64,000 bases of DNA from a virus (taxonomy: Duplodnaviria > Caudoviricetes): positions 12,351-76,350 of IMG/VR virus record IMGVR_UViG_2974668079_000001; one strand, given 5' to 3'. Position 1 is the stretch's first letter, and each line of letters starts with the position of its first letter. A program made the position numbers and the translations under genes. The notes beneath the pieces were generated by a model. It saw only the letters and a list, made by a program, of their open reading frames with translations. It did not search any database and was not told where the DNA came from. Positions 14,885 through 60,500 of this stretch are shown here, piece by piece.

Positions 14885-15712
14885 ATGGCATATCAAAAAG
14901 GTACTGCTAACAGTCATACAGACCTGTTAGTAAAACTCCACACGTTCGCTACGGCGAACGGGTGGACATCACAGAAGAACGAGGAGTCCGGGGGCGAGCG
15001 AGAGATCGTTCTCAAGTCCACAGGTACAGGTGGAAACGATTCAATTGTACTGGCGTTTCGAGCTAACACCCTACAAGCGTCTGATACATATAACATACGC
15101 TGTCGTGTGTCTGCTGCGTACGTTACGTCTGCGTTTGACAACATAACGGGTGCGTCGCCGGAGTCAGTACTATACGCGTGGAACGCAGATATGGAATACT
15201 ACTTTATTGTTAGTAAAGAGCGGATCATGATTCTGTTTACAGTATCTGGCGTATCTCAGTACTACTACGGCGGTAACATGCAGGTGTACACGTCTCGTGG
15301 GCACTGGGTAAGTCCACTCTGCTGCTTCGGGGTAGGGACCAGCACTACAGCTCGCTGGTCTGAGCAGGGCAACGACTTCTCCGGGTGGCAGTACATCCGT
15401 GGTTCTAACCCCAACCACATATTGGGTGACACAGGCGCATGGACTAAACCAGATTACTTTTTCCCGAATATGGATACGGCTCTTACTAATAAGCTGCGTG
15501 CCTACGACAACGGGGACATCCCGCTCCTACCAATGTTCGTAAGGACAGCCGCTCGCGGCATAGTGGGGGAGCTCCACGGTGCCTTCGGATGTGGTGGGTT
15601 TGGTGTTTCTCACGGGCAGGAACTAGCACACTCATCTGGTAGACGTTTTGTAATCCTTCAGAACGTATACCGGGCGGGAACTACAGACTACATGGCAATG
15701 GAGCTAGCATAA
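14885..15712 (+). CDS. Virion structural tail protein
   Basis: Directly after the tape measure gene; tightly coupled; beta-rich. Confidence 0.65.
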   Translation: MAYQKGTANSHTDLLVKLHTFATANGWTSQKNEESGGEREIVLKSTGTGGNDSIVLAFRANTLQASDTYNIRCRVSAAYVTSAFDNITGASPESVLYAWNADMEYYFIVSKERIMILFTVSGVSQYYYGGNMQVYTSRGHWVSPLCCFGVGTSTTARWSEQGNDFSGWQYIRGSNPNHILGDTGAWTKPDYFFPNMDTALTNKLRAYDNGDIPLLPMFVRTAARGIVGELHGAFGCGGFGVSHGQELAHSSGRRFVILQNVYRAGTTDYMAMELA

Positions 15713-51260: not shown

Positions 51261-51285
51261 AGGGAGCTTCGGCTCCCTTTTCTTT
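51261..51285 (+). terminator. Rho-independent terminator
   Basis: GGGAGC-TTCG-GCTCCC followed by a T-run. Confidence 0.8.
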
Positions 51286-51336: not shown

Positions 51337-52023
51337 GTGAAAGAACGTTACCGTGACGAGCTCACGTGGTGGGAGAAGCGACTAGGTGTTTGGCGAGTTA
51401 ACAAGGACTCATACGACACAACTTGGGGCTACTTCGCACCGCGCTGGGCTCTGGAGTTCAAGGTCAATGCAGGCGGGTACTTTAGTAACCAGTGCTCGCT
51501 AGATGTGGGGTTCATCTGGGGACTGTTTCACATTAAGCTGCCGATACGTCTTAAGAATCACGAGGAGAGCTGTGAGTGGAACGACTACGGCTTTATGTGG
51601 TACGAGAACCAATGGGTATTCAAATGGGGCGAGAAGTCTAAGTGGTGGGATGTTCCATTTATCTCGTGGACCTTTGACTTCCATCATGTAATGCACAAAG
51701 ACGGGCATTGGGTAAATGGCGACCAAGCGTGGAAGAACGAGGAGATTGAAAAAGAAATCTTTGATTACACGTATGTATTAGAGTCCGGGGAAGTTCAGCA
51801 CCGCAAGGCAACTTGCTACCGTGAGCGACGCCAGTGGCACCGTAAGTGGCTTCCGTTCCTAAAGCGTACAGTTACTTCGATTAGTATCGAGTTTGATGAC
51901 GAGGTGGGAGAGCGTAGCGGTACTTGGAAAGGCGGTACTATGGGATGCGGTTGGGACCTACTGCCTAACGAGACAATCGAGCAGTGCTTACGCCGTATGG
52001 AAAAAGAACGCAAGTTCACCTAA
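51337..52023 (+). CDS. Hypothetical Trp-rich protein
   Basis: AGGAGG RBS with GTG start; 228 aa. Confidence 0.7.
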   Translation: MKERYRDELTWWEKRLGVWRVNKDSYDTTWGYFAPRWALEFKVNAGGYFSNQCSLDVGFIWGLFHIKLPIRLKNHEESCEWNDYGFMWYENQWVFKWGEKSKWWDVPFISWTFDFHHVMHKDGHWVNGDQAWKNEEIEKEIFDYTYVLESGEVQHRKATCYRERRQWHRKWLPFLKRTVTSISIEFDDEVGERSGTWKGGTMGCGWDLLPNETIEQCLRRMEKERKFT

Positions 52024-52885: not shown

Positions 52886-52907
52886 AGGGAGCTTCGGCTC
52901 CCTTTTT
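52886..52907 (+). terminator. Rho-independent terminator
   Basis: GGGAGC-TTCG-GCTCCC followed by TTTTT. Confidence 0.8.
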
Positions 52908-52911
52908 CGTG

Positions 52912-52971
52912 CCTAAGTGCCTAGGTGTTTTCGACCTAAGTGCCTAGGTAGTTTGAGCCTAAGTGCCTAGG
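52912..52971. repeat. Tandem array A: 3 x CCTAAGTGCCTAGG, 23-bp period
   Basis: Copies at 52912, 52935 and 52958. Confidence 0.95.
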
Positions 52972-53102
52972 CTGTTTAGTAAAAACCACCCGATGTCGGG
53001 ATTCCCGTGATCGGGCAGGAAGCCCCGCCCCGTACAGCTTTCCGCTGAATTTACACCCTTTTGGTGATCACCCCCGGAACTGAAAAATAGTTCAAAAAAC
53101 TG

Positions 53103-53130
53103 TTTACTATTAGTAAAAACCGCGTATAGT
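53103..53130 (+). promoter_or_regulatory. Sigma70-type promoter
   Basis: TTTACT-N16-TATAGT with TTAGTAA in the spacer. Confidence 0.55.
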
Positions 53131-53158
53131 TAACCGGGTAGACAAGGAGCACGCAACA

Positions 53159-53274: not shown

Positions 53275-53303
53275 TTGACTCACTAAAAACAGTTTAGTAA
53301 AGT
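53275..53303 (+). promoter_or_regulatory. Sigma70-type promoter for parB
   Basis: TTGACT-N17-TAAAGT; TTAGTAA overlaps the -10 element. Confidence 0.65.
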
Positions 53304-53348: not shown

Positions 53349-54395
53349 ATGACTAAACGAGCTTCAGAACTTGCCAAAAACACTGCTTTTAACGATTTGT
53401 TCGCTTCAAGCAAAACGGGCTTCAACGTTGCCGAAATGAAAGACGGCGACAAGGTTAAGAAAGACTTCCGCACGTATGTAATCCACCCGTCGGCAATTCG
53501 TGTAATTGACGGCTTTAACTCCCGCATGGATTACGGCGATATTGAAGAGCTGGCGATGAGTCTTAAAGCCGAGCACGAAAACACCGGGCAGGCACTTATC
53601 CAACCGTTGATCTTGATGTCGGTTAAGGGCGAGAAAGACACTTACGATCTTATCGCTGGGCACCGTAGAATTATGGCGGTGCAGTGGTTGTGGGAGAATC
53701 TACAGTATGACGTGGGCGGCTTGATGGCTCGCATCTACAAGTACGATACGCCTTACCACCACATGATCGGCGTTAACATGCGCGAGAATGACCAAAAGCC
53801 ACTGTTACCGATTGAAGAGGCGATCAACTTCAAGCGCCTTAAAGATGCAGATTACACGCTGGAGCAGATCCGAGATCTTAGTGGTCGATCAATCTGTCAT
53901 ATTAGTAAGCGTTTAACGCTTCTAACTGGTGCGGACGAAGTTGTGGACGCGGTAGCATCCGGGGAACTTCAATCACAAATGGCGGCTGAAATTGTCGTAC
54001 GTCGTAAGGGTGACATCGAAGGACAAAAGGAGCTTGTCAAGAAAGCCACGGAAAGCAAGGAAGGCAACCGCGCTGTACGCCAGCAACTTAAGGCGGAAAT
54101 GAACTCAACCGGACGCAAGAAACGCGCTAAGAAAGCGGAGAAGACCGGGGACAAAGGCGACGTTAAAAACAAGCGCCTAACTCAAAAAGAGCATGACGAA
54201 TTAGTAACATCTCATGCGATGTGGGCGGCTGACTTTGTGAAGACGTACGGTATCCCGGTTGATCAGGTCGAAGTCATGAAAAAGGCGGGAGAGTTACGCG
54301 CTGAAGGTGACGCCGGGTATCGTAAGCTTACTAAGATGCTTCAAGAATTTGGAAAGATTGACGGAATCGCGCTTGTGCTAGGCATCGACTTATAA
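53349..54395 (+). CDS. ParB/Spo0J-family protein (CTPase domain plus HTH)
   Basis: FNSR, LIQPL, LIAGHRRIMA, RENDQKPLLPIEEA and TLEQIRDLSGRS..HISKRLTLL motifs. Confidence 0.88.
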   Translation: MTKRASELAKNTAFNDLFASSKTGFNVAEMKDGDKVKKDFRTYVIHPSAIRVIDGFNSRMDYGDIEELAMSLKAEHENTGQALIQPLILMSVKGEKDTYDLIAGHRRIMAVQWLWENLQYDVGGLMARIYKYDTPYHHMIGVNMRENDQKPLLPIEEAINFKRLKDADYTLEQIRDLSGRSICHISKRLTLLTGADEVVDAVASGELQSQMAAEIVVRRKGDIEGQKELVKKATESKEGNRAVRQQLKAEMNSTGRKKRAKKAEKTGDKGDVKNKRLTQKEHDELVTSHAMWAADFVKTYGIPVDQVEVMKKAGELRAEGDAGYRKLTKMLQEFGKIDGIALVLGIDL

Positions 54396-54405
54396 GGTGC
54401 AAGTT

Positions 54406-54572
54406 TAACCGGGTAATTTCGGTAGGGAGCTCCCCCTTATTAGCTCCCCTTTTTAAAGGGCTTCCGTGTGGAGTCTTTTAGAAAGATATACCACTGCTAG
54501 CCGGGTAATTACGGCAGGGCTACCTTACAGCCCACTTTTTAAAGCGCATTTAGTAAAGTGCGTTTTAACAAG
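54406..54572 (+). ncRNA. Two tandem copies of a three-hairpin structured element
   Basis: 54406-54485 and 54498-54572 share their layout and show compensatory base changes. Confidence 0.5.
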
Positions 54573-54594
54573 TACAACAATCGGAGTCAGATAA

Positions 54595-55056
54595 ATGCTA
54601 CTAGCAAAAAACCTACAGCGTGCGCCTTACCTTAAGACTTTAGGCGATACCCTTTTCGCTCACTGCGTGCAGGATCTACCATTCACGGCGCTTGATACCG
54701 CGCCAGCCTTCACCCTTACTATTACTAAGGGCGGGGACCTAGCAACAGCTCACACGCTGGCAATCCGCGATGTGGAGGAGGTCCACGATATAGCCCGCCA
54801 CTTTAAGACCGGGGCTAAACGCCTACACGGAATCCAGATCTTTAATGACCCGCTTGCTATCTTTGAGCAGCACGGCGGTCACACGTGGACCGGGAAGGCG
54901 ATTTATAACGCGTTTATTGCCAACAGCTCAACACTGGGCAAGAAATGGATCAAGCAAGCGAGCGCGTACGATATTATGAAAACTGTCAATACCGTCAATG
55001 ATCGTGCGTTTAGTGTATGGGTAGAGGAATTATGCGCAAAGGTGGAGGAATGCTAA
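54595..55056 (+). CDS. Hypothetical protein
   Basis: 153-aa ORF with GGAG RBS. Confidence 0.65.
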   Translation: MLLAKNLQRAPYLKTLGDTLFAHCVQDLPFTALDTAPAFTLTITKGGDLATAHTLAIRDVEEVHDIARHFKTGAKRLHGIQIFNDPLAIFEQHGGHTWTGKAIYNAFIANSSTLGKKWIKQASAYDIMKTVNTVNDRAFSVWVEELCAKVEEC

Positions 55057-55388
55057 AACGCTCTATAATCGCCGCTGTGCTGTTTTTCAGTGCTAACATG
55101 GCTCATGGTGCCACTGACTGGCAAAACGTTCAATCTGACGCGTTTGCGGCGCGATTTGCGGTACAGTCAATGATTCCTTCTCGCTGTATTTACCCGGAAC
55201 GCTTCAACCGCTTCTATAAATCGGTGAAGGCTGACGGTTTTGATACTGCTTTGCTGAAGGATGATAAATTCCTTACTAAGATTAAGCGCGAGAAAGCTAG
55301 TCTTAAAAAGTGGCTGGGTACAACTGACGACGGTTGTGCAATCATTAGCAAGCAATTCCCTAACCAGTATTACAAGGGATTCTTTTAA
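55050..55388 (+). CDS. Secreted/periplasmic protein
   Basis: GGAGG RBS; signal peptide MLKRSIIAAVLFFSANMAHG; two Cys. Confidence 0.65.
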   Translation: MLKRSIIAAVLFFSANMAHGATDWQNVQSDAFAARFAVQSMIPSRCIYPERFNRFYKSVKADGFDTALLKDDKFLTKIKREKASLKKWLGTTDDGCAIISKQFPNQYYKGFF

Positions 55389-55766: not shown

Positions 55767-55795
55767 AAGCCTCGGAATGTTCCGGGGCTTTTTTG
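55767..55795 (+). terminator. Rho-independent terminator
   Basis: AAGCCTCGGAA-TG-TTCCGGGGCTT followed by a T-run. Confidence 0.8.
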
Positions 55796-55805
55796 ATCGG
55801 GGATG

Positions 55806-55910
55806 CCTAGGCACTTTGAAAAATTTTACCTAGGCACTTTGAAAAATTTTACCTAGGCACTTTGAAAAATTTTACCTAGGAGGTTTGAAAAATTTTGCCT
55901 AGGAGGTTTG
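55806..55910. repeat. Tandem array B: 5 x 23 bp CCTAGG(CAC/AGG)TTTGAAAAATTTTA
   Basis: Copies at 55806, 55829, 55852, 55875 and 55898; the core is the reverse complement of array A. Confidence 0.95.
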
Positions 55911-56311
55911 GGATTCTGGTGGGATTTCGGACCGGGTAGGTGTCAAACCACTTGAGAAGATTTTACATCTTTTCACTTGACTTGAGATCTTTTTATATCT
56001 TTTTAGGTTTTCTTCCGGGCATAGCATAGCCGGGATCGTTAGTAAACCCTTTTTAGTAAATTTTATGTTTTCCACTTCCACCGGGAAGCGGTCCCGGCGT
56101 GGAAGGCGTCGCCAGTTGGACCGGGAACCCGGCAACCGGGCAACCGGGAAGGCGTCCCCGTTGTGGTGCCTATTACCACAAATTGCGGATCAACTACCAA
56201 ACACTTTTTAATAGTTTTTAGTAATAAGCATATAACAATTTAATTTACTAAAATTATTGAAGTTGCCCGCCGTTTTTAGTAAACGCGTGCGCCCGGTCTA
56301 TTTACCATTAG

Positions 56312-56374
56312 TAAAAAAATAATTGTTGAAAGTTTAAAAAAGGTATTGTAACCGGGAACGGGTTTTAGTAAGAT
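56312..56374 (+). promoter_or_regulatory. Early promoter 1
   Basis: AAAAATAATTGTTGAAAGTT UP-like element; TTGTAA-N17-TAAGAT. Confidence 0.75.
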
Positions 56375-56431
56375 GTATCACAAGGAAGGCGGGAAGGGTT
56401 CCCGGCTATGGCAAACAATGGAGCGCCGATC

Positions 56432-56536
56432 ATGTTTATAGATTTGAACAAAGTTGCACTACTTCCCAACTTTGATTGGATGTTTTGGACCGGGATCGCG
56501 TGCGCCGCTTATATCGTTTGGAAATTCTCAAAATGA
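56432..56536 (+). CDS. 34-aa membrane peptide (not in the ORF track)
   Basis: GGAG RBS; MFIDLNKVALLPNFDWMFWTGIACAAYIVWKFSK; ATGA overlap with the next gene. Confidence 0.55.
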   Translation: MFIDLNKVALLPNFDWMFWTGIACAAYIVWKFSK

Positions 56537-56685
56537 AAATATTACTAATTTGTGCCGTTATCGCTGGCGGTCTAGTATCATGCGATCAAGTTATGACAGC
56601 TAAAGCCGTGAAAACGTGCGAGGCTAAAAAGCAAGCCGGGGGATTGTCCGCACCTTTTAACAATTGTGATATTTTGAAATTTTAG
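56533..56685 (+). CDS. Small lipoprotein (50 aa)
   Basis: MKILLICAVIAGGLVS-C lipobox; two further Cys. Confidence 0.65.
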   Translation: MKILLICAVIAGGLVSCDQVMTAKAVKTCEAKKQAGGLSAPFNNCDILKF

Positions 56686-56746
56686 TAAAAATAATTGTTG
56701 AAAGTTGGTTTTTCCTATTGTACCCGGACCGGGTTTTTAGTAATAT
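56686..56746 (+). promoter_or_regulatory. Early promoter 2
   Basis: Same UP-like element; TTGTAC-N17-TAATAT. Confidence 0.75.
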
Positions 56747-56776
56747 AACCATATCGAAGCAAACAAACATTTAAGG

Positions 56777-57178
56777 ATGTCACTTATGTTTAACCGTCAA
56801 ACTCAAAAACAAAAGATCTTTTCGTTAGCGTGGGACAATGCTCGCCACGCTGCAAACTTCCACGGCGGCGAGCCCCGCGAATATTTCGCGGAATCTCTAA
56901 AGCTTGCTTACCGTGGCGTAAAACTGGCAAACGTAAAACCACGATCTGAAGTTTTCACACTGGATCTAGTTAGCGCGGTTTTGTGTGGCATCCTTGCAAT
57001 TGCAATAATTCTCTTTTCAATCTGGATCGGTCATCCAGCGGCTATTCTATCCGCGCTTATCGGTTTGGCAATCGGTGCCGCTGGTTGGTCTGATTTCGAA
57101 CTGCACTTGCAAGAAATTGCAGAAAACAAACGAATCAATAAAAATACTAATTTTAACCGTCTAGTAATTGACTTTTAA
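56777..57178 (+). CDS. Hypothetical membrane protein
   Basis: N-terminal AW..A....GG..REYFAESLKLAY phage motif plus two TM segments. Confidence 0.65.
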   Translation: MSLMFNRQTQKQKIFSLAWDNARHAANFHGGEPREYFAESLKLAYRGVKLANVKPRSEVFTLDLVSAVLCGILAIAIILFSIWIGHPAAILSALIGLAIGAAGWSDFELHLQEIAENKRINKNTNFNRLVIDF

Positions 57179-57191
57179 GTAAGGGCATACC

Positions 57192-57680
57192 ATGCGCAAT
57201 CTAAACAACTATTTTTCTATTGAACAAAAACTTACTAACCGCACTGAAGCGGTAAACACTGCAAACCGTTTTATTAACGAAGTTGCGCCCGTTCTGATCG
57301 CTCGACTATCTGAAGGCTTTAAGATCAAAACCACATCAAACGATTTCTTTAAAAAGGATCACGAAGACTTGAGATCAATTCTCGACAACGCAGCGATGGC
57401 GGACAAAATCCATCAAGCTTTTTTAGATGTCACTGACACCGTGATCCGCGTTCGCGTGAAAACAACGTTTACAGTTAGTAACGTTGGTTGCTGTTACTAT
57501 GAGGATTTCGCTAATATTTGGAGCCGTGAAAAAGATCAGGCGTGGGACTTCCAGCCGCTGGAGATTATCCCGGTTGGAAAAGTGATCGAGGCACATCAAG
57601 CGATCAAGCCACTAGAAGATCAGATCCGCGAACTTAAAGCGAAACTATCTCAACTTAAATCAATTACGGGCGGGCTATAA
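57192..57680 (+). CDS. Hypothetical early protein
   Basis: TAAGGGC RBS; C-terminal coiled coil. Confidence 0.7.
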   Translation: MRNLNNYFSIEQKLTNRTEAVNTANRFINEVAPVLIARLSEGFKIKTTSNDFFKKDHEDLRSILDNAAMADKIHQAFLDVTDTVIRVRVKTTFTVSNVGCCYYEDFANIWSREKDQAWDFQPLEIIPVGKVIEAHQAIKPLEDQIRELKAKLSQLKSITGGL

Positions 57681-57682
57681 TT

Positions 57683-58087
57683 ATGGATCTATCAACTAAC
57701 ATCTATGCAGCGGATAACCGCTACCACTTTGCGGACCGTTATGACGAACACGGGACCTTAAACGATCTAGCGTGTGAGTACGCGGATAAGTTCCAGTCCG
57801 AATACTTGGAGCACATCAACGGCGAGACCGCCGATCCCGACGACGCTCAAACGTTAGCGCATGATTACGCCCGCGAAACTGTACTCGATGGAATGTGCCG
57901 TTTTAGTGTTCGCTTTTTCGCGGTCACTTACCCGGATCATGTTTTGACGCGTAAACCATTCGATACACTTGGAGCCGAAACACCGGATCAGCTAATCCGC
58001 CGAAATATTGAAGAAGTTGTGACCGCCGCCGCCAACGTCCTGATCGAAGAAATGCGCGAGCGTGGAGATCTTGACCGTGACGAATAG
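57683..58087 (+). CDS. Acidic early protein, possible Ocr-like DNA mimic
   Basis: About 30 D/E versus about 13 K/R in 134 aa; DPDDAQTLAHDYARETV segment. Confidence 0.6.
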   Translation: MDLSTNIYAADNRYHFADRYDEHGTLNDLACEYADKFQSEYLEHINGETADPDDAQTLAHDYARETVLDGMCRFSVRFFAVTYPDHVLTRKPFDTLGAETPDQLIRRNIEEVVTAAANVLIEEMRERGDLDRDE

Positions 58088-58304
58088 CATTGAAGCATTG
58101 ACGGATCGCGGATACCTTCCAGCCGGGGAGTTTAACCCGGCTATTCATAAAAAGGTTAGTAAATGCGATTTGGGCGGGATACCTTGCCGCGTGGTTAGCG
58201 GTCCCGGCTTGGAGCGCGGGATCATGCCATACCACACAACAAAGATGATCGGCGGCTTCCCGGTAGTGGTAGACAATAAAACATATTTTGTAAAATCGAA
58301 TTAG
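58062..58304 (+). CDS. Hypothetical early protein
   Basis: Fills the gap between neighbours; start uncertain. Confidence 0.5.
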   Translation: MEILTVTNSIEALTDRGYLPAGEFNPAIHKKVSKCDLGGIPCRVVSGPGLERGIMPYHTTKMIGGFPVVVDNKTYFVKSN

Positions 58305-58317
58305 TAAGGGCGTTACT

Positions 58318-58695
58318 ATGAAAAAGGTTAATAAACCACAATCAAACCGATTCTTTGAAGGCGTGCGAGATCTTGACAGCCTGATCGGGCGTTCGACTCA
58401 CAACGGCGAATACTCAAACAATGTGATCCGTTTAGGGTTCACACATTTAAACGGTCAAGTGTTGGAAGGTTGCCCGGTTTATATCACCGGGGAATTGTTC
58501 GACAAAATCGGCGGGATGGTTTACGGCAACGGCGGCGAACTAAACAAGCGTTACCGCTTGGAGATGGTTTACACAATGGGCGGCGAATATCATCTTTTTG
58601 TCAAGTACCAGCACATTAACGGATCGCGTCGTGTTTGTGCAATATCCCCGGATAGCGTCCAGCGATGGATCGACACGCAACCGAAAAGCAATTAA
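58318..58695 (+). CDS. Hypothetical early protein
   Basis: TAAGGGC RBS. Confidence 0.7.
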   Translation: MKKVNKPQSNRFFEGVRDLDSLIGRSTHNGEYSNNVIRLGFTHLNGQVLEGCPVYITGELFDKIGGMVYGNGGELNKRYRLEMVYTMGGEYHLFVKYQHINGSRRVCAISPDSVQRWIDTQPKSN

Positions 58696-58699
58696 TTTA

Positions 58700-59010
58700 A
58701 ATTATATTAGTAAGGGCGCATTTTGCGCCCTTTTTTGTACCCGGTAAGCTGTACAGCTTTATTACTAATATTTAGCTTTTTGCTGTACGTGCAGCGGCGA
58801 TCTAGGGCGATTTTTCAATTTGGCGCGAAACGAAGCTTTTAATACCATAGCAAGGCTTTTACTAAAAACCGCTTACAACGCCATACAGCGCGAATTTGGG
58901 GCATATTACTAAAACGTGTTTTAGTAATTACTATTAGTAAAAAGAGTTATAAAAATAATTGTTGAAAGTTGCATTTTCCTATTGTACCCGGACCGGGTTT
59001 TTAGTAATAT
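58700..59010 (+). repeat. About 310-bp direct repeat, copy 1 (terminator, spacer, early promoter 3)
   Basis: Aligns with 60190-60500; AAGGGCGCA-TTT-TGCGCCCTTTTTT terminator; TTGTAC-N17-TAATAT at 58982-59010. Confidence 0.92.
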
Positions 59011-59064
59011 GTATCACAAGGAAGGCGGGAAGGGTTCCCGGCTAGATTGTGTGGAGTGCTCGCA

Positions 59065-59343
59065 ATGGCATCACAAAAACTTGATATTTTCCCGGCTCGC
59101 TTGGGTTTACCGTCGCAACTAAACAAGGCTTTTAAAAAGGCGGGTTTATCCGTTGTCATATTGGATAAGCATCCACGCGGATCAGTTGCTAGCCGTGGCG
59201 ATCAAAATTTCGTTTGCTACCGTGTTGATTTTCAATCGGTTAGTAAATGTGGCGATGGTTCCGACGCTCGCCCGGCTTCAATGGCATTCACTCACAACAC
59301 AAAAACGCACCGCGTGACGTTAACAGAAATCGACTATCTTTAA
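59065..59343 (+). CDS. Hypothetical early protein
   Basis: GGAG RBS; first gene after promoter 3. Confidence 0.65.
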   Translation: MASQKLDIFPARLGLPSQLNKAFKKAGLSVVILDKHPRGSVASRGDQNFVCYRVDFQSVSKCGDGSDARPASMAFTHNTKTHRVTLTEIDYL

Positions 59344-59372
59344 TTTATATTTTTATCAGTAAGGGCTTTACA

Positions 59373-59699
59373 ATGACAGTTACTAAACTAGAAGCATTAA
59401 AAACAACTTTCGATCAAGCGGCAAACGCGGCAATCGACGCGGGCGCAACTCATTACATTATCAATAAAACGCTGTACGCGGGACAATGGATCACGTTCTC
59501 TTATAGTTTTGTTAATTGCGACAAAAAGAAACTTAATCAAGTTTTTGAAGTTGGGACGTATATCAAAGAGATGAAAACATACACACCAACGGATCGTTGG
59601 ATGTCTGACAAGTGGATCGGGCATAACCTAGACGGGCGAGACCGCCACGGAATGATCAATTCTGAATTGTTCCAGCTGGATCGCGGTATTATTAAGTAA
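59373..59699 (+). CDS. Hypothetical early protein
   Basis: TAAGGGC RBS before ATG 59373. Confidence 0.7.
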   Translation: MTVTKLEALKTTFDQAANAAIDAGATHYIINKTLYAGQWITFSYSFVNCDKKKLNQVFEVGTYIKEMKTYTPTDRWMSDKWIGHNLDGRDRHGMINSELFQLDRGIIK

Positions 59700-59744
59700 T
59701 CACACAATAACAACTATTCACACATTTATTAGTAAGGGCTTATT

Positions 59745-60185
59745 ATGAAAACTATTTGTAAAGTTATCGCGGGATCATTCGCTGGCGAGTTTGGTCGCCT
59801 TCATTCTAAATTCAGCACGGGCTTGATCATGCTGGAGGACCGCCACGGCGATCAGTTGTCTGTCACTGAAAAGCAGATCGAACGCTTGGAAGTGCGCACG
59901 GCTAACCTAAACAATCCAACTATTCAAGGTTTGATTGATATTGATGGATCTATCAAGTACGGCTTCAATAGTGGCGGCTACGAATCAAACGCGTACTTTA
60001 TCACGGCGGACGGCGGCACGCTGGCAATTAATACAGTTATCAGTGAGATCGATAAAGTTGATTTCTGCGACGACTGCGATCCGCAATGGCATATTGTACA
60101 CCACGGCGTAAACTATGAAGAGACGGATCTTTTAGACTCTCACACGGGCGAACCAATCCCGGCGGCGTACAGTGACGACGACTAA
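59745..60185 (+). CDS. Hypothetical early protein
   Basis: TAAGGGC RBS; GGY..YFITADGGTL..W.....NYE..L....G..I..AY domain; acidic. Confidence 0.7.
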   Translation: MKTICKVIAGSFAGEFGRLHSKFSTGLIMLEDRHGDQLSVTEKQIERLEVRTANLNNPTIQGLIDIDGSIKYGFNSGGYESNAYFITADGGTLAINTVISEIDKVDFCDDCDPQWHIVHHGVNYEETDLLDSHTGEPIPAAYSDDD

Positions 60186-60189
60186 AAAC

Positions 60190-60500
60190 AATTATATTAG
60201 TAAGGGCGCATTTTGCGCCCTTTTTTGTATCCGGGACTGCGTACAGCTTTATTAGTAAATAACTGCTTTTCGCTGTACGTACACCGGGGATCTAGGGCGA
60301 TTTTTCAATTTGGCGCGAAACGAAGCTTTTAATACCATAGCAAGGCTTTTACTAAAAACCGCTTAAAACGCCATACAGCGAGAATAAGAGCTATATTACT
60401 AAATCGCGTTTACCCGGTTTAATATTAGTAAAAACGTTCTAAAAATAATTGTTGAAAGTTGCATTTTCCTATTGTATCCGGTCCGCTAATTTAGTAATAT
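60190..60500 (+). repeat. About 310-bp direct repeat, copy 2 (terminator, spacer, early promoter 4)
   Basis: Offset 1490 bp from copy 1; TTGTAT-N17-TAATAT at 60472-60500. Confidence 0.92.

What the first reader, a model, noticed from the sequence alone, without database searches (positions are those of the whole stretch)
54406..54572. Tandem structured RNA motif with covariation, resembling a tRNA 5' half fused to a long hairpin
Seen: copy 1 reads TA-ACCG-GGTAATTT-CGGT-A-GGGAGCT-loop-AGCTCCC-C, then a hairpin of about 16 bp (CTTTTTAAAG...CTTTTAGAAAG). Copy 2 reads TA-GCCG-GGTAATTA-CGGC-A-GGGCT-ACCTTAC-AGCCC-A, then CTTTTTAAAG...GTTTTAACAAG. The first stem switches A-T to G-C, and the other stems differ in sequence but still pair, which indicates selection on RNA structure. 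The TA, 4-bp stem, A, stem layout mimics a tRNA D-arm plus anticodon arm, but there is no acceptor stem or T-arm. Inference: a novel ncRNA, RNase III processing signal, antitermination element or decoy for tRNA-targeting defences.
Basis: partly seen in the sequence, partly recalled or inferred. Interest (0 to 1): 0.7.

Follow-up and report, generated by a model that had tools for sequence, protein, structure and literature searches.

The report
Tandem folded RNA between phage genes
Between the parB-like gene and the next gene of this Vibrio phage lie two copies of a conserved three-hairpin RNA fold that most likely acts within the messenger RNA to cut, cap or partly stop it; it is a real, uncatalogued element but of a familiar kind, and it is not related to tRNA.

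Summary
The 199-nt gap 54396-54594 lies between a parB-like gene and a 153-codon ORF of a Mardecavirus (Vibrio siphophage, SSP002/KF5 type). It holds two tandem units of about 92 nt. Each unit folds on the sense strand into three abutting hairpins. hp1 has 4 bp and a conserved 8-nt loop GGUAAUUN. hp2 has 5-7 G+C-rich bp followed by CUUUUU. hp3 has 15-17 A/U-rich bp with an invariant lower stem.

The + strand folds far better than shuffles (z -4.8). The complement does not (z -0.6). The gap is more conserved than third codon positions of the flanking genes. A covariance model built from copy 1 alone finds copy 2 at full length and no third copy in the genome. No tRNA or Rfam family matches, so the tRNA resemblance is only a matter of layout.

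The element occurs only in the 37 Mardecavirus records. These form about three lineages, so covariation among orthologues is thin.

Best reading (0.45): a cis-acting intercistronic mRNA module with a weak terminator or 3'-cap hairpin, an RNase III-sized hairpin and a conserved linker. It would uncouple parB from the downstream genes. Cleavage, termination and any hp1-binding factor are inferred, not shown. Earlier notes of this scan describe similar intercistronic phage hairpins on other DNA.

The parts
53349..54395 (+). parB-like gene (348 aa) directly upstream; its stop codon lies 10 nt before unit 1
   Evidence: ORF list. Pfam gives HTH_ParB at 8.9e-7 and ParB_N at 9e-5, which is under the curated cut-off. 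PHROG 32069 matches.
54405..54496 (+). Unit 1 of the tandem element (hp1, hp2, hp3 and linker)
   Evidence: Unit folds. Model R1 scores 108 bits here.
54408..54423 (+). hp1 of unit 1: 4-bp core ACCG/CGGU with loop GGUAAUUU
   Evidence: The outer pair is A-U here and G-C in R01/MAR10 and in every copy 2 (pair 4-19: AU 6, GC 5).
54425..54448 (+). hp2 of unit 1: 7-bp G+C-rich stem with a 10-nt C-rich loop, followed by CUUUUU
   Evidence: Pair 4 is A-U here and C-G in R01/MAR10. Its terminator score is negative.
54449..54485 (+). hp3 of unit 1: 16 continuous bp with 4 G-U pairs; the lower stem CUUUUUAAAG / CUUUUAGAAAG has a conserved sequence and the upper stem varies
54486..54499 (+). Single-stranded linker between the units; AGAUAUACC is conserved in all lineages apart from a 1-nt insertion in VP06/VneS_S3 (GAUAAUACC)
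   Evidence: Alignment A1; folds.
54497..54577 (+). Unit 2 of the tandem element
   Evidence: Model R1, built from copy 1 only, matches at full length with 47.3 bits and E 1.5e-7.
54500..54515 (+). hp1 of unit 2: GCCG/CGGC with loop GGUAAUUA
54517..54533 (+). hp2 of unit 2: 5-bp stem with the 7-nt loop ACCUUAC, followed by ACUUUUU
   Evidence: In R01/MAR10 the stem has slid by one pair (CGGGC/GCCCG).
54534..54573 (+). hp3 of unit 2: 4+13 bp with a 1x1 internal loop; the apex holds one of the genome-wide TTASTAA sites
   Evidence: A C-G to U-A double change occurs in R01/MAR10 (pair 51-68).
54559..54571 (+). Stretch matching 11 of 13 positions of the E. coli rrn boxA; it lies inside the 3' arm of hp3 of unit 2
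   Evidence: It is the only match of 11/13 or better on the + strand of the window. Unit 1 has no good counterpart (8/13).
54583..54597 (+). Shine-Dalgarno GGAG and the ATG of the downstream 153-codon ORF (54595-55056), 10 nt after hp3 of unit 2
   Evidence: The ORF belongs to PHROG 30538, of unknown function.
53275..53303 (+). Nearest upstream sigma-70-like promoter (TTGACT-17-TAAAGT). None was found inside the gap, so the element should be transcribed with parB.
   Evidence: The promoter is conserved in relatives.
55767..55790 (+). First canonical intrinsic terminator downstream (10-bp stem, tetraloop, U-run); probable end of the parB operon
   Evidence: positive terminator score.

Best explanation
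The two units are cis-acting RNA structures inside the parB operon mRNA. They form an intercistronic punctuation module. In each unit, hp2 plus its U5 run acts as a weak terminator. After cleavage it also acts as a terminator-like 3' cap. The abutting 15-17-bp A/U-rich hp3 is a double-stranded RNA target of the size that RNase III cuts. The conserved single-stranded linker is a possible RNase E site. The outcome would be a stable, hairpin-capped parB message, with separately set and probably lower levels of the three small downstream genes.

Shown: the fold, its strand, its conservation, its position inside a transcription unit and the poor terminator quality of the hairpins. Inferred: cleavage, partial termination and the effect on expression. 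The conserved hp1 loop is unexplained. It suggests that a protein or a loop-loop contact recognises it.
For: The structure is on the sense RNA strand. The + strand has z = -4.8 against -0.6 for the complement, and each hp3 has 2-4 G-U pairs.

There is purifying selection. Gap identity to VP06, R01 and MAR10 is 0.90, 0.75 and 0.74. Third codon positions of parB and orf153 are 0.52-0.68 identical.

Stems are kept through compensatory changes.

No sigma-70-like promoter lies in the gap. All genes run on the + strand and no phage RNA polymerase is annotated.

Contigs of three RNA libraries from one study run unbroken from parB through the element to 55738 (records 9, 19 and 27).

hp2 and hp3 score -7 to -79 on a hairpin/U-tail terminator index. 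Five canonical terminators of the same genome score +7 to +47. Read-through is therefore expected.

hp3 has 15-17 bp. T7 early RNase III sites folded with the same program have about 17-21 paired positions. R1.3 folds as 4+13 bp with a 1x1 loop, like hp3 of unit 2.

The lower stem of hp3 is invariant in sequence while the upper stem covaries. This is what is expected if an enzyme reads the lower stem.

The 42-codon ORF annotated across unit 2 in one relative is not conserved.
Against: No RNA ends were mapped. The laid runs are contigs and cannot show starts, ends or levels, and RNA libraries can contain DNA.

The terminator index formula was recalled from memory, so only the comparison within this genome counts.

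hp3 lacks the asymmetric internal loop and the sequence consensus of T7 sites.

The model explains neither the strictly conserved hp1 loop nor why both copies are kept.

Only about three independent lineages exist, so orthologue covariation alone is not significant.

The element is unique in the genome. Phages that punctuate operons with RNase III sites usually carry several.
Confidence: 0.45

Rival explanations
1. It is a factor-dependent or RNA-autonomous antitermination or attenuation site, working like lambda nut, rrn boxB-boxA or HK022 put. hp1 with its conserved loop would bind a phage or host protein, or the stacked hairpins would bind RNA polymerase directly. The polymerase would then read through hp2/hp3 and the terminator at 55767 into the early region.
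For: The hp1 loop GGUAAUUN is conserved in both copies and all lineages while its closing pair covaries. This is typical of a recognised hairpin. The hairpins are separated by 0-1 nt, as in put (from memory). Each hp1 sits directly before a hairpin with a U-run. A stretch at 54559 matches 11 of 13 positions of the E. coli rrn boxA read from the rrsH leader. It is the only such + strand match in 64 kb. The genome is transcribed in one direction by host polymerase through many terminators.
Against: The boxA-like stretch is buried in the 3' arm of a -15.6 kcal/mol hairpin. Its variable position covaries with the opposite arm rather than following boxA. Unit 1 has no counterpart, at 8/13. hp1 has an 8-nt loop, not a boxB-type pentaloop. 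hp2 and hp3 are poor terminators anyway. No N-, Q- or LoaP-like protein was identified. Rfam gave nothing.
Confidence: 0.15
2. It is the source of one or two stable small RNAs that act in trans or as a sponge or decoy. One example would be the roughly 60-90-nt piece from the linker through hp1-hp2-U5 of unit 2. It would be released by cuts in the two hp3 stems or by termination at hp2, and would use the linker or the hp1 loop as a seed or protein-binding site.
For: A product ending in hp2 plus a U-run, with a conserved single-stranded 5' part (AGAUAUACC), has the shape of an Hfq-type sRNA derived from a 3' UTR. Two copies are kept in all 37 records. The neighbourhood holds anti-defence genes such as an Acb3 homologue at 51337-52020.
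Against: No promoter lies in the gap. The U-run has only 5 U. No convincing conserved target was found. The two perfect 10-nt complements of the hp2 loop (5953 and 63978) lie in a promoter upstream region and in a terminator, and that loop varies in length between isolates. The hp1 motif was found in no bacterial species genome apart from 7 scattered matches in unrelated taxa. No RNA abundance data are available.
Confidence: 0.15
3. It is a DNA-level site. It could be a centromere or operator for the adjacent ParB-like protein, as with P1 parS downstream of parB. It could also be a single-strand initiation or packaging signal that uses hairpins in single-stranded DNA.
For: The position immediately downstream of parB is the classical position of plasmid and P1 centromeres (established knowledge). 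hp1 contains a short inverted repeat, RCCG-N8-CGGY.
Against: Folding is strongly strand-asymmetric with many G-U pairs. The upper stems keep their pairing but not their sequence, which a protein-binding duplex would not require. The asymmetric 8-nt spacer of hp1 is the conserved part. Better ParB-site candidates flank the module as 23-bp arrays sharing the core AAGTGCCTAGG in opposite orientation.
Confidence: 0.07
4. It is a tRNA-derived relic or tRNA mimic (D arm plus anticodon arm) that serves as a decoy for tRNA-targeting defence nucleases or as a substrate for tRNA-processing enzymes.
For: Unit 2 has the layout UA, 4-bp stem, 8-nt loop, A, 5-bp stem, 7-nt loop.
Against: ARAGORN finds nothing in 64 kb. 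No Rfam hit, tRNA model included, reaches E <= 10. The hp2 loop is 7, 8, 9, 10, 13 or 14 nt in different copies and lineages. By inspection against the standard tRNA pattern, position 33 of the 7-nt loop is C and the hp1 loop lacks A14 and properly spaced G18G19. There is no T arm and no acceptor stem, and a 16-bp A/U hairpin follows instead.
Confidence: 0.03

Closest known systems
RNase III processing signals between genes of phage T7 early mRNA (R0.3, R0.5, R1, R1.1, R1.3)
   Same: Both are sense-strand hairpins of about 1.5-2 helical turns between cistrons of a host-polymerase transcript. Both have A-rich 5' and U-rich 3' flanks and would leave a hairpin-capped upstream message. Helix size is comparable: 15-17 bp here against about 17-21 paired positions in T7 sites folded.
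   Different: The element has no T7-type asymmetric internal loop and no shared sequence consensus. It occurs at one locus as two tandem copies rather than at many gene boundaries. Each long hairpin is preceded by two further conserved hairpins. Cleavage is untested.
E. coli rpsO-pnp intercistronic region (leaky terminator hairpin followed by a long RNase III hairpin), and REP/BIME stabilisers such as malE-malF
   Same: A G+C-rich hairpin with a U-run is followed directly by a long hairpin within an operon. The expected effect is upstream-message stabilisation and lower downstream expression. This comparison rests on established knowledge and was not tested here.
   Different: There is no sequence relation. 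The phage element is duplicated, has a conserved-loop hairpin in front, and its hp3 uses the U-run of hp2 as its own 5' arm.
Lambda nut / rrn boxB-boxA and HK022 put antitermination RNAs
   Same: All are small hairpins in a nascent transcript upstream of terminators. Two copies occur per genome, the hairpins are 0-1 nt apart, and one boxA-like 13-mer is present at 11/13.
   Different: The boxA-like stretch is base-paired and present in only one unit. The hp1 loop has 8 nt. The copies are tandem rather than behind two promoters. No cognate protein was identified.
tRNA
   Same: Only the order of a 4-bp stem, one unpaired A and a second stem is shared.
   Different: There is no acceptor stem or T arm. 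Loop lengths vary, conserved tRNA residues are missing, and ARAGORN and Rfam are negative.

Membership tests
tRNA / tRNA-like element | Cloverleaf with acceptor stem and T arm, detectable by tRNA finders | tested here: not met
   ARAGORN finds 0 genes in the window. Rfam cmscan with permissive filters gives no tRNA or tRNA-like hit at E <= 10.
tRNA / tRNA-like element | Anticodon arm of 5 bp with a 7-nt loop carrying U33; D loop with A14 and G18G19 | tested here: not met
   The hp2 loop is 7-14 nt across copies and lineages. The 7-nt loop reads ACCUUAC, with C at the second position. The hp1 loop reads GGUAAUUN. The comparison with the tRNA pattern is from established knowledge.
Any Rfam 15 family | Match to a curated covariance model | tested here: not met
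   The only hit in 53800-55200 is a chance HOTAIR fragment at E 6.2, outside the element.
Intrinsic (Rho-independent) terminator | Stable G+C-rich hairpin with a short loop, followed at once by a U-rich tract | tested here: inconclusive
   hp2 has a G+C-rich stem and U5. However, its loops are 7-14 nt, a C or AC spacer precedes the U-run, and dG is -6 to -12. Its index is -7 to -59 against +7 to +47 for five canonical terminators of this genome. The consensus scan lists only hp2 of unit 2, near the bottom of its list.
RNase III processing site | Double-stranded RNA helix of roughly 1.5-2 turns in a hairpin | tested here: met
   hp3 has 15-17 bp in all lineages. T7 sites folded the same way have about 17-21 paired positions.
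RNase III processing site | Lies within a polycistronic transcript | tested here: inconclusive
   No promoter lies in the gap. RNA-library contigs of one study bridge it. Contigs do not prove a single transcript.
RNase III processing site | Cut by RNase III in vivo or in vitro | not testable with these tools
   Only contigs could be laid. Run X3 has a hole at 54254-54569 and a contig that starts at 54570, which cannot be read as an RNA end.
T7-type RNase III site family | Conserved asymmetric internal loop and flanking consensus | tested here: not met
   hp3 is fully paired or has a single 1x1 mismatch and shares no consensus with the T7 sites.
nut / rrn antitermination site | Single-stranded boxA next to a boxB hairpin | tested here: inconclusive
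   There is an 11/13 match to E. coli rrn boxA at 54559. It lies within the hp3 stem, and unit 1 reaches only 8/13.
ParB centromere (parS) | Palindromic duplex site bound by ParB, with symmetric conservation | tested here: not met
   Only 4-bp arms are present, with an asymmetric conserved spacer. The folding signal is strand-specific. Binding itself is not testable here.

The most novel reading that the evidence does not exclude
The tandem units are not mere mRNA punctuation. They would be a dedicated riboregulator in which the invariant hp1 loop is a recognition site. One possibility is a polymerase-modifying antitermination RNA (put- or nut-like) that opens the early region to transcripts from the parB promoters. 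Another is an excised small RNA that sequesters a host or phage protein, for example a defence or RNA-decay factor. Either would be a new RNA family specific to Mardecavirus.
Probability: 0.15. Interest if true: 0.7.

Novelty: new member of a known kind. Interest (0 to 1): 0.35.

Why it matters
The phages of this genus are being developed for biocontrol of Vibrio parahaemolyticus, V. alginolyticus and V. campbellii in aquaculture, yet nothing is known of how they control their genes. This element is a clear, selectable RNA signal in the one operon that carries their ParB-like protein, and it sits at the border of the early region. If it is a processing or attenuation module, it adds a Vibrio siphophage to the T7 and SPO1 examples of host-RNase-dependent mRNA punctuation, and it gives a compact part for setting expression ratios. 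If the hp1 loop binds a factor, it would point to a new regulator. Either way it is a candidate new RNA family for Rfam, although known diversity is narrow.

Tried and rejected
1. Phage-specific promoter. The motif ends in TAGGGAG like a T7 promoter. It was rejected because there are only two copies in 76 kb and no phage RNA polymerase is annotated.

2. Wider homologues.
- An exact-pattern scan of IMG/VR gave only MAR10 plus chance hits.
- The species-genome scan gave 7 scattered chance hits and none in Vibrio.
- The metagenome scan gave 0.
- Protein-guided searches with ParB and orf153 found no relatives outside the 37 Mardecavirus records with the same module.

3. 16S rRNA 530-loop mimicry. 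The best local alignment of the element to E. coli 16S does fall there, but 52 of 500 shuffles score as well, the two matching pieces are not colinear, and the native 530-loop pairing differs.

4. Small protein. The 42-codon GTG ORF (54466-54594) annotated in phage 27Ua.3 is broken by stops in VP06, R01 and MAR10.

5. -1 frameshift signal (U UUA AAG plus hairpin). No open frame reaches it, because stops follow the parB stop.

6. CRISPR-repeat mimic, type III antitoxin repeats and VCR/attC. These were rejected on unit length (92 nt) and because the hp3 upper stem is not conserved in sequence between lineages. The comparison sequences were from memory only.

7. Trans targets. Complements of the loops and the linker in the phage genome gave nothing consistent.

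8. Loop-loop or pseudoknot pairing. Candidates were hp1 GGUA with an upstream U(A/G)CC, hp1 with the hp2 loop, and hp1 with hp1 through AAUU. All are possible on paper, but the registers differ between lineages, so nothing is claimed.

9. RNA-seq.
- Only contigs were available.
- Run X3 has no cover over 54254-54569 and a contig starting at 54570. This is not evidence of an RNA end.
- Contig depths cannot rank genes.

10. Function of the downstream gene. The Atlas gave no usable hit. The single-sequence AlphaFold model has pLDDT 35 and is unusable.

11. A window-wide scan for stable local hairpins was dominated by G+C-rich coding hairpins and was uninformative. A first version of the script was killed.

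12. No published transcriptome of a Mardecavirus was found.

Full report
WHERE IT IS

The window is 64 kb of a 76,350-bp Vibrio siphophage of the genus Mardecavirus (SSP002/KF5 type). Thirty-seven GenBank phage records match the region, at 77-100% identity over the gap and its flanks. The finding lies in the 199-nt gap 54396-54594. Upstream is a parB-like gene at 53349-54395 (HTH_ParB, ParB_N, PHROG 32069). Downstream is a 153-codon ORF of unknown function (54595-55056), followed by two further small genes. One of these encodes a TM2-domain protein.

All annotated genes of a closely related genome run on the + strand, and no phage RNA polymerase is annotated. The nearest sigma-70-like promoters on the + strand lie upstream of parB, at 53103-53130 and 53275-53303. 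None is found inside the gap. The next canonical terminator is at 55767-55790.

THE OBSERVATION

There are two tandem units, at 54405-54496 and 54497-54577. Each unit folds into three hairpins that abut with 0-1 nt between them.
- hp1 has a 4-bp core (RCCG/CGGY) and the loop GGUAAUUN.
- hp2 has 5-7 G+C-rich pairs and a loop of 7-14 nt that usually contains CCUUA. It is followed by (A)CUUUUU.
- hp3 has 15-17 pairs and is A/U-rich. Its 5' arm begins with that same U-run.

The 19-nt hp1 motif occurs twice against 0.05 expected, and nowhere else in the genome.

As RNA, the + strand of the gap folds at -70.4 kcal/mol (z = -4.8, 0 of 200 shuffles as good). The complement folds at -51.3 (z = -0.6). 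Each hp3 has 2-4 G-U pairs. The signal therefore belongs to the sense transcript, not to duplex DNA.

CONSERVATION AND COVARIATION

The relatives fall into about three lineages: the window type, VP06/KF3/KF4/S3, and MAR10/R01. All of them fold into the same six hairpins when each sequence is folded on its own.

Several changes preserve the structure:
- A-U to G-C at the base of hp1 in unit 1.
- A-U to C-G in hp2 of unit 1.
- A stem that slides by one pair in hp2 of unit 2.
- A deleted base pair plus several G-U to G-C changes in hp3 of unit 1.
- C-G to U-A in hp3 of unit 2.

The gap is 0.90, 0.75 and 0.74 identical to VP06, R01 and MAR10. Third codon positions of the flanking genes are only 0.52-0.68 identical. 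The gap is therefore under purifying selection.

A covariance model built only from copies of unit 1 finds every unit 2 at full length (47-54 bits, E about 1e-7 to 6e-9). It finds no third copy in the genome. On the model-fitted alignment of 11 distinct units, 96.9% of cells form standard pairs against 84.9% in shuffles (0/500). Ten pairs change on both sides (2/500). Slid controls fall to 36-62%.

Limits on this evidence:
- The alignment is fitted to the structure.
- Most both-sided changes separate the two paralogues.
- The orthologues of unit 2 alone (3 distinct sequences) give no significant signal (175/500).

The element is thus well supported as a conserved fold. The number of independent evolutionary events is nevertheless small.

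WHAT IS CONSERVED IN SEQUENCE

Four features never vary between paralogues and lineages:
- the CCG/CGG core and loop of hp1;
- the G/C ends of hp2;
- the lower nine pairs of hp3 (CUUUUUAAAG against (C)UUUUANAAAG);
- the linker AGAUAUACC, apart from a single-base insertion in VP06/VneS_S3.

The upper stem of hp3 and the inner part of hp2 are free to change as long as they pair. The poly-C tract in the hp2 loop of unit 1 varies from 5 to 9 C between isolates.

WHAT IT IS NOT

It is not a tRNA or a recognisable tRNA derivative. ARAGORN finds nothing in the window. No Rfam family, tRNA included, reaches E <= 10. The would-be anticodon loop ranges from 7 to 14 nt, and the conserved tRNA residues, T arm and acceptor stem are absent.

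It is not a protein-coding gene. The 42-codon ORF annotated in one relative is interrupted in other lineages.

It is not a phage promoter family, since there are only two copies and no phage polymerase.

It is unlikely to be the ParB centromere. The signal is strand-specific. Much better candidates flank the module at 52912-52980 and 55806-55920, as 23-bp arrays sharing the core AAGTGCCTAGG in opposite orientation.

A resemblance of hp1 to the 16S 530 loop is not above chance (52 of 500 shuffles).

ARE THE HAIRPINS TERMINATORS?

hp2 has the general look of a terminator, and its stem GGGAGC resembles the canonical terminators at 51261 and 52886. On a hairpin-energy/U-tail index, however, all hp2 and hp3 hairpins score negative (-7 to -79). 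Five canonical terminators of the same genome score +7 to +47. The formula was recalled from memory, so only this internal comparison counts. The consensus scan lists only hp2 of unit 2, and ranks it low.

With no promoter in the gap, the three downstream genes must be reached by read-through. Contigs from three RNA libraries of one study run unbroken from parB across the element to 55738. This agrees with read-through but does not prove it.

MOST LIKELY MECHANISM (INFERENCE; CONFIDENCE 0.45)

The module acts in cis in the parB operon mRNA. hp3 is a double-stranded helix of the size cut by RNase III. T7 early sites folded with the same program have about 17-21 paired positions, and R1.3 folds as 4+13 bp with a 1x1 loop, the same shape as hp3 of unit 2.

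The invariant A/U lower stem and the freely covarying upper stem fit an enzyme that reads the lower stem. A cut there would leave the upstream message ending in hp2 plus U residues. That is a terminator-like cap placed with zero spacing, which would explain why hp2 abuts hp3.

hp2 may also stop a fraction of polymerases. The conserved single-stranded linker between the units is a possible RNase E site. In that case unit 1 would cap the 3' end of the parB message and unit 2 would cap the 5' end of the downstream message. The net effect would be a stable parB mRNA and separately set levels of the downstream small genes.

This reading does not explain the invariant hp1 loop. That loop calls for a binding partner (protein, loop-loop contact or pseudoknot), and I could not establish one.

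RIVALS

A nut-, rrn- or put-like antitermination site remains possible (0.15). The hp1 loop looks like a recognition hairpin. A stretch at 54559 matches 11 of 13 positions of the E. coli rrn boxA, read from the rrsH leader, and it is the only such match on the + strand of the window. Against this, the stretch is buried in the hp3 stem, it covaries with the opposite arm, and unit 1 has no counterpart.

An excised or terminated small RNA or decoy is also possible (0.15). No promoter, target or abundance data support it.

A DNA-level role (0.07) and a tRNA mimic (0.03) are disfavoured for the reasons given above.

COMPARISON WITH KNOWN SYSTEMS, AND NOVELTY

The element works most like the RNase III punctuation of T7 early mRNA and like the rpsO-pnp intercistronic region. 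It is not a member of the T7 site family, because it has no internal loop and no shared consensus. It is not in Rfam. It is confined to one phage genus.

Earlier notes of this scan describe comparable intercistronic hairpins in other phages, and they reached the same closest-known system. Those notes are unchecked AI notes and are not evidence, but they show that this kind of element is not rare.

I rate it a new member of a known kind, of moderate interest. It is real, conserved and uncatalogued. Its architecture is unusual, with three hairpins, a tandem arrangement and an invariant loop. Its function has not been shown.

Noticed in passing
whole window: The palindrome family TTASTAA occurs at 243 sites against about 9 expected from base composition. 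One site forms the apex of hp3 in unit 2 (TTTAGTAAA at 54549-54557; TTTACTAAA in MAR10/R01). Another overlaps the -10 of the parB promoter.
   Followed up: partly
window 52912-52980 and 55806-55920: Two arrays with a 23-bp period share the core AAGTGCCTAGG in opposite orientation. They bracket the parB module, and each follows a canonical terminator. They are better candidates for ParB or regulator binding sites than the element studied here. The number of repeats differs between lineages.
   Followed up: partly
window 51337-52020: The gene two positions upstream of parB is a clear homologue of the CBASS inhibitor Acb3 (Pfam PF25187, E 5e-80). One relative annotates it only as hypothetical.
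   Followed up: partly
window 51261-51278 and 52886-52903: Two identical canonical terminators (7-bp GGGAGC stem, UUCG loop) are each preceded by TTAGTAAA..ACCTA. The hp2 stem of unit 1 uses the same GGGAGC/GCUCCC arms with a much larger loop.
   Followed up: no
window 56300-60500: The early region is built from repeated promoter-hairpin cassettes (TTGAAA-17-TATTGT, then ACCCGG..CCGGGT plus a U-run, then TTAGTAAT ATG). It includes a 222-nt direct repeat at 58700 and 60190.
   Followed up: no
L053 (OP547477.1) 15396-15524 = window 54466-54594: Phage 27Ua.3 annotates a 42-aa hypothetical protein across unit 2. The frame is not conserved in other lineages, so the call is probably spurious.
   Followed up: yes
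window 54432-54436 and relatives (L008, L009, L011): The C-run in the hp2 loop of unit 1 varies from 5 to 9 C between otherwise near-identical isolates. This may be homopolymer slippage or sequencing error. In two isolates it removes the innermost pair of the stem.
   Followed up: no
window 53131-53141: TTAACCGGGTA, which is shared with the start of unit 1, recurs at the predicted start site of the promoter at 53103-53130. Only ACCGGGTA is kept in relatives, so it is probably chance.
   Followed up: partly
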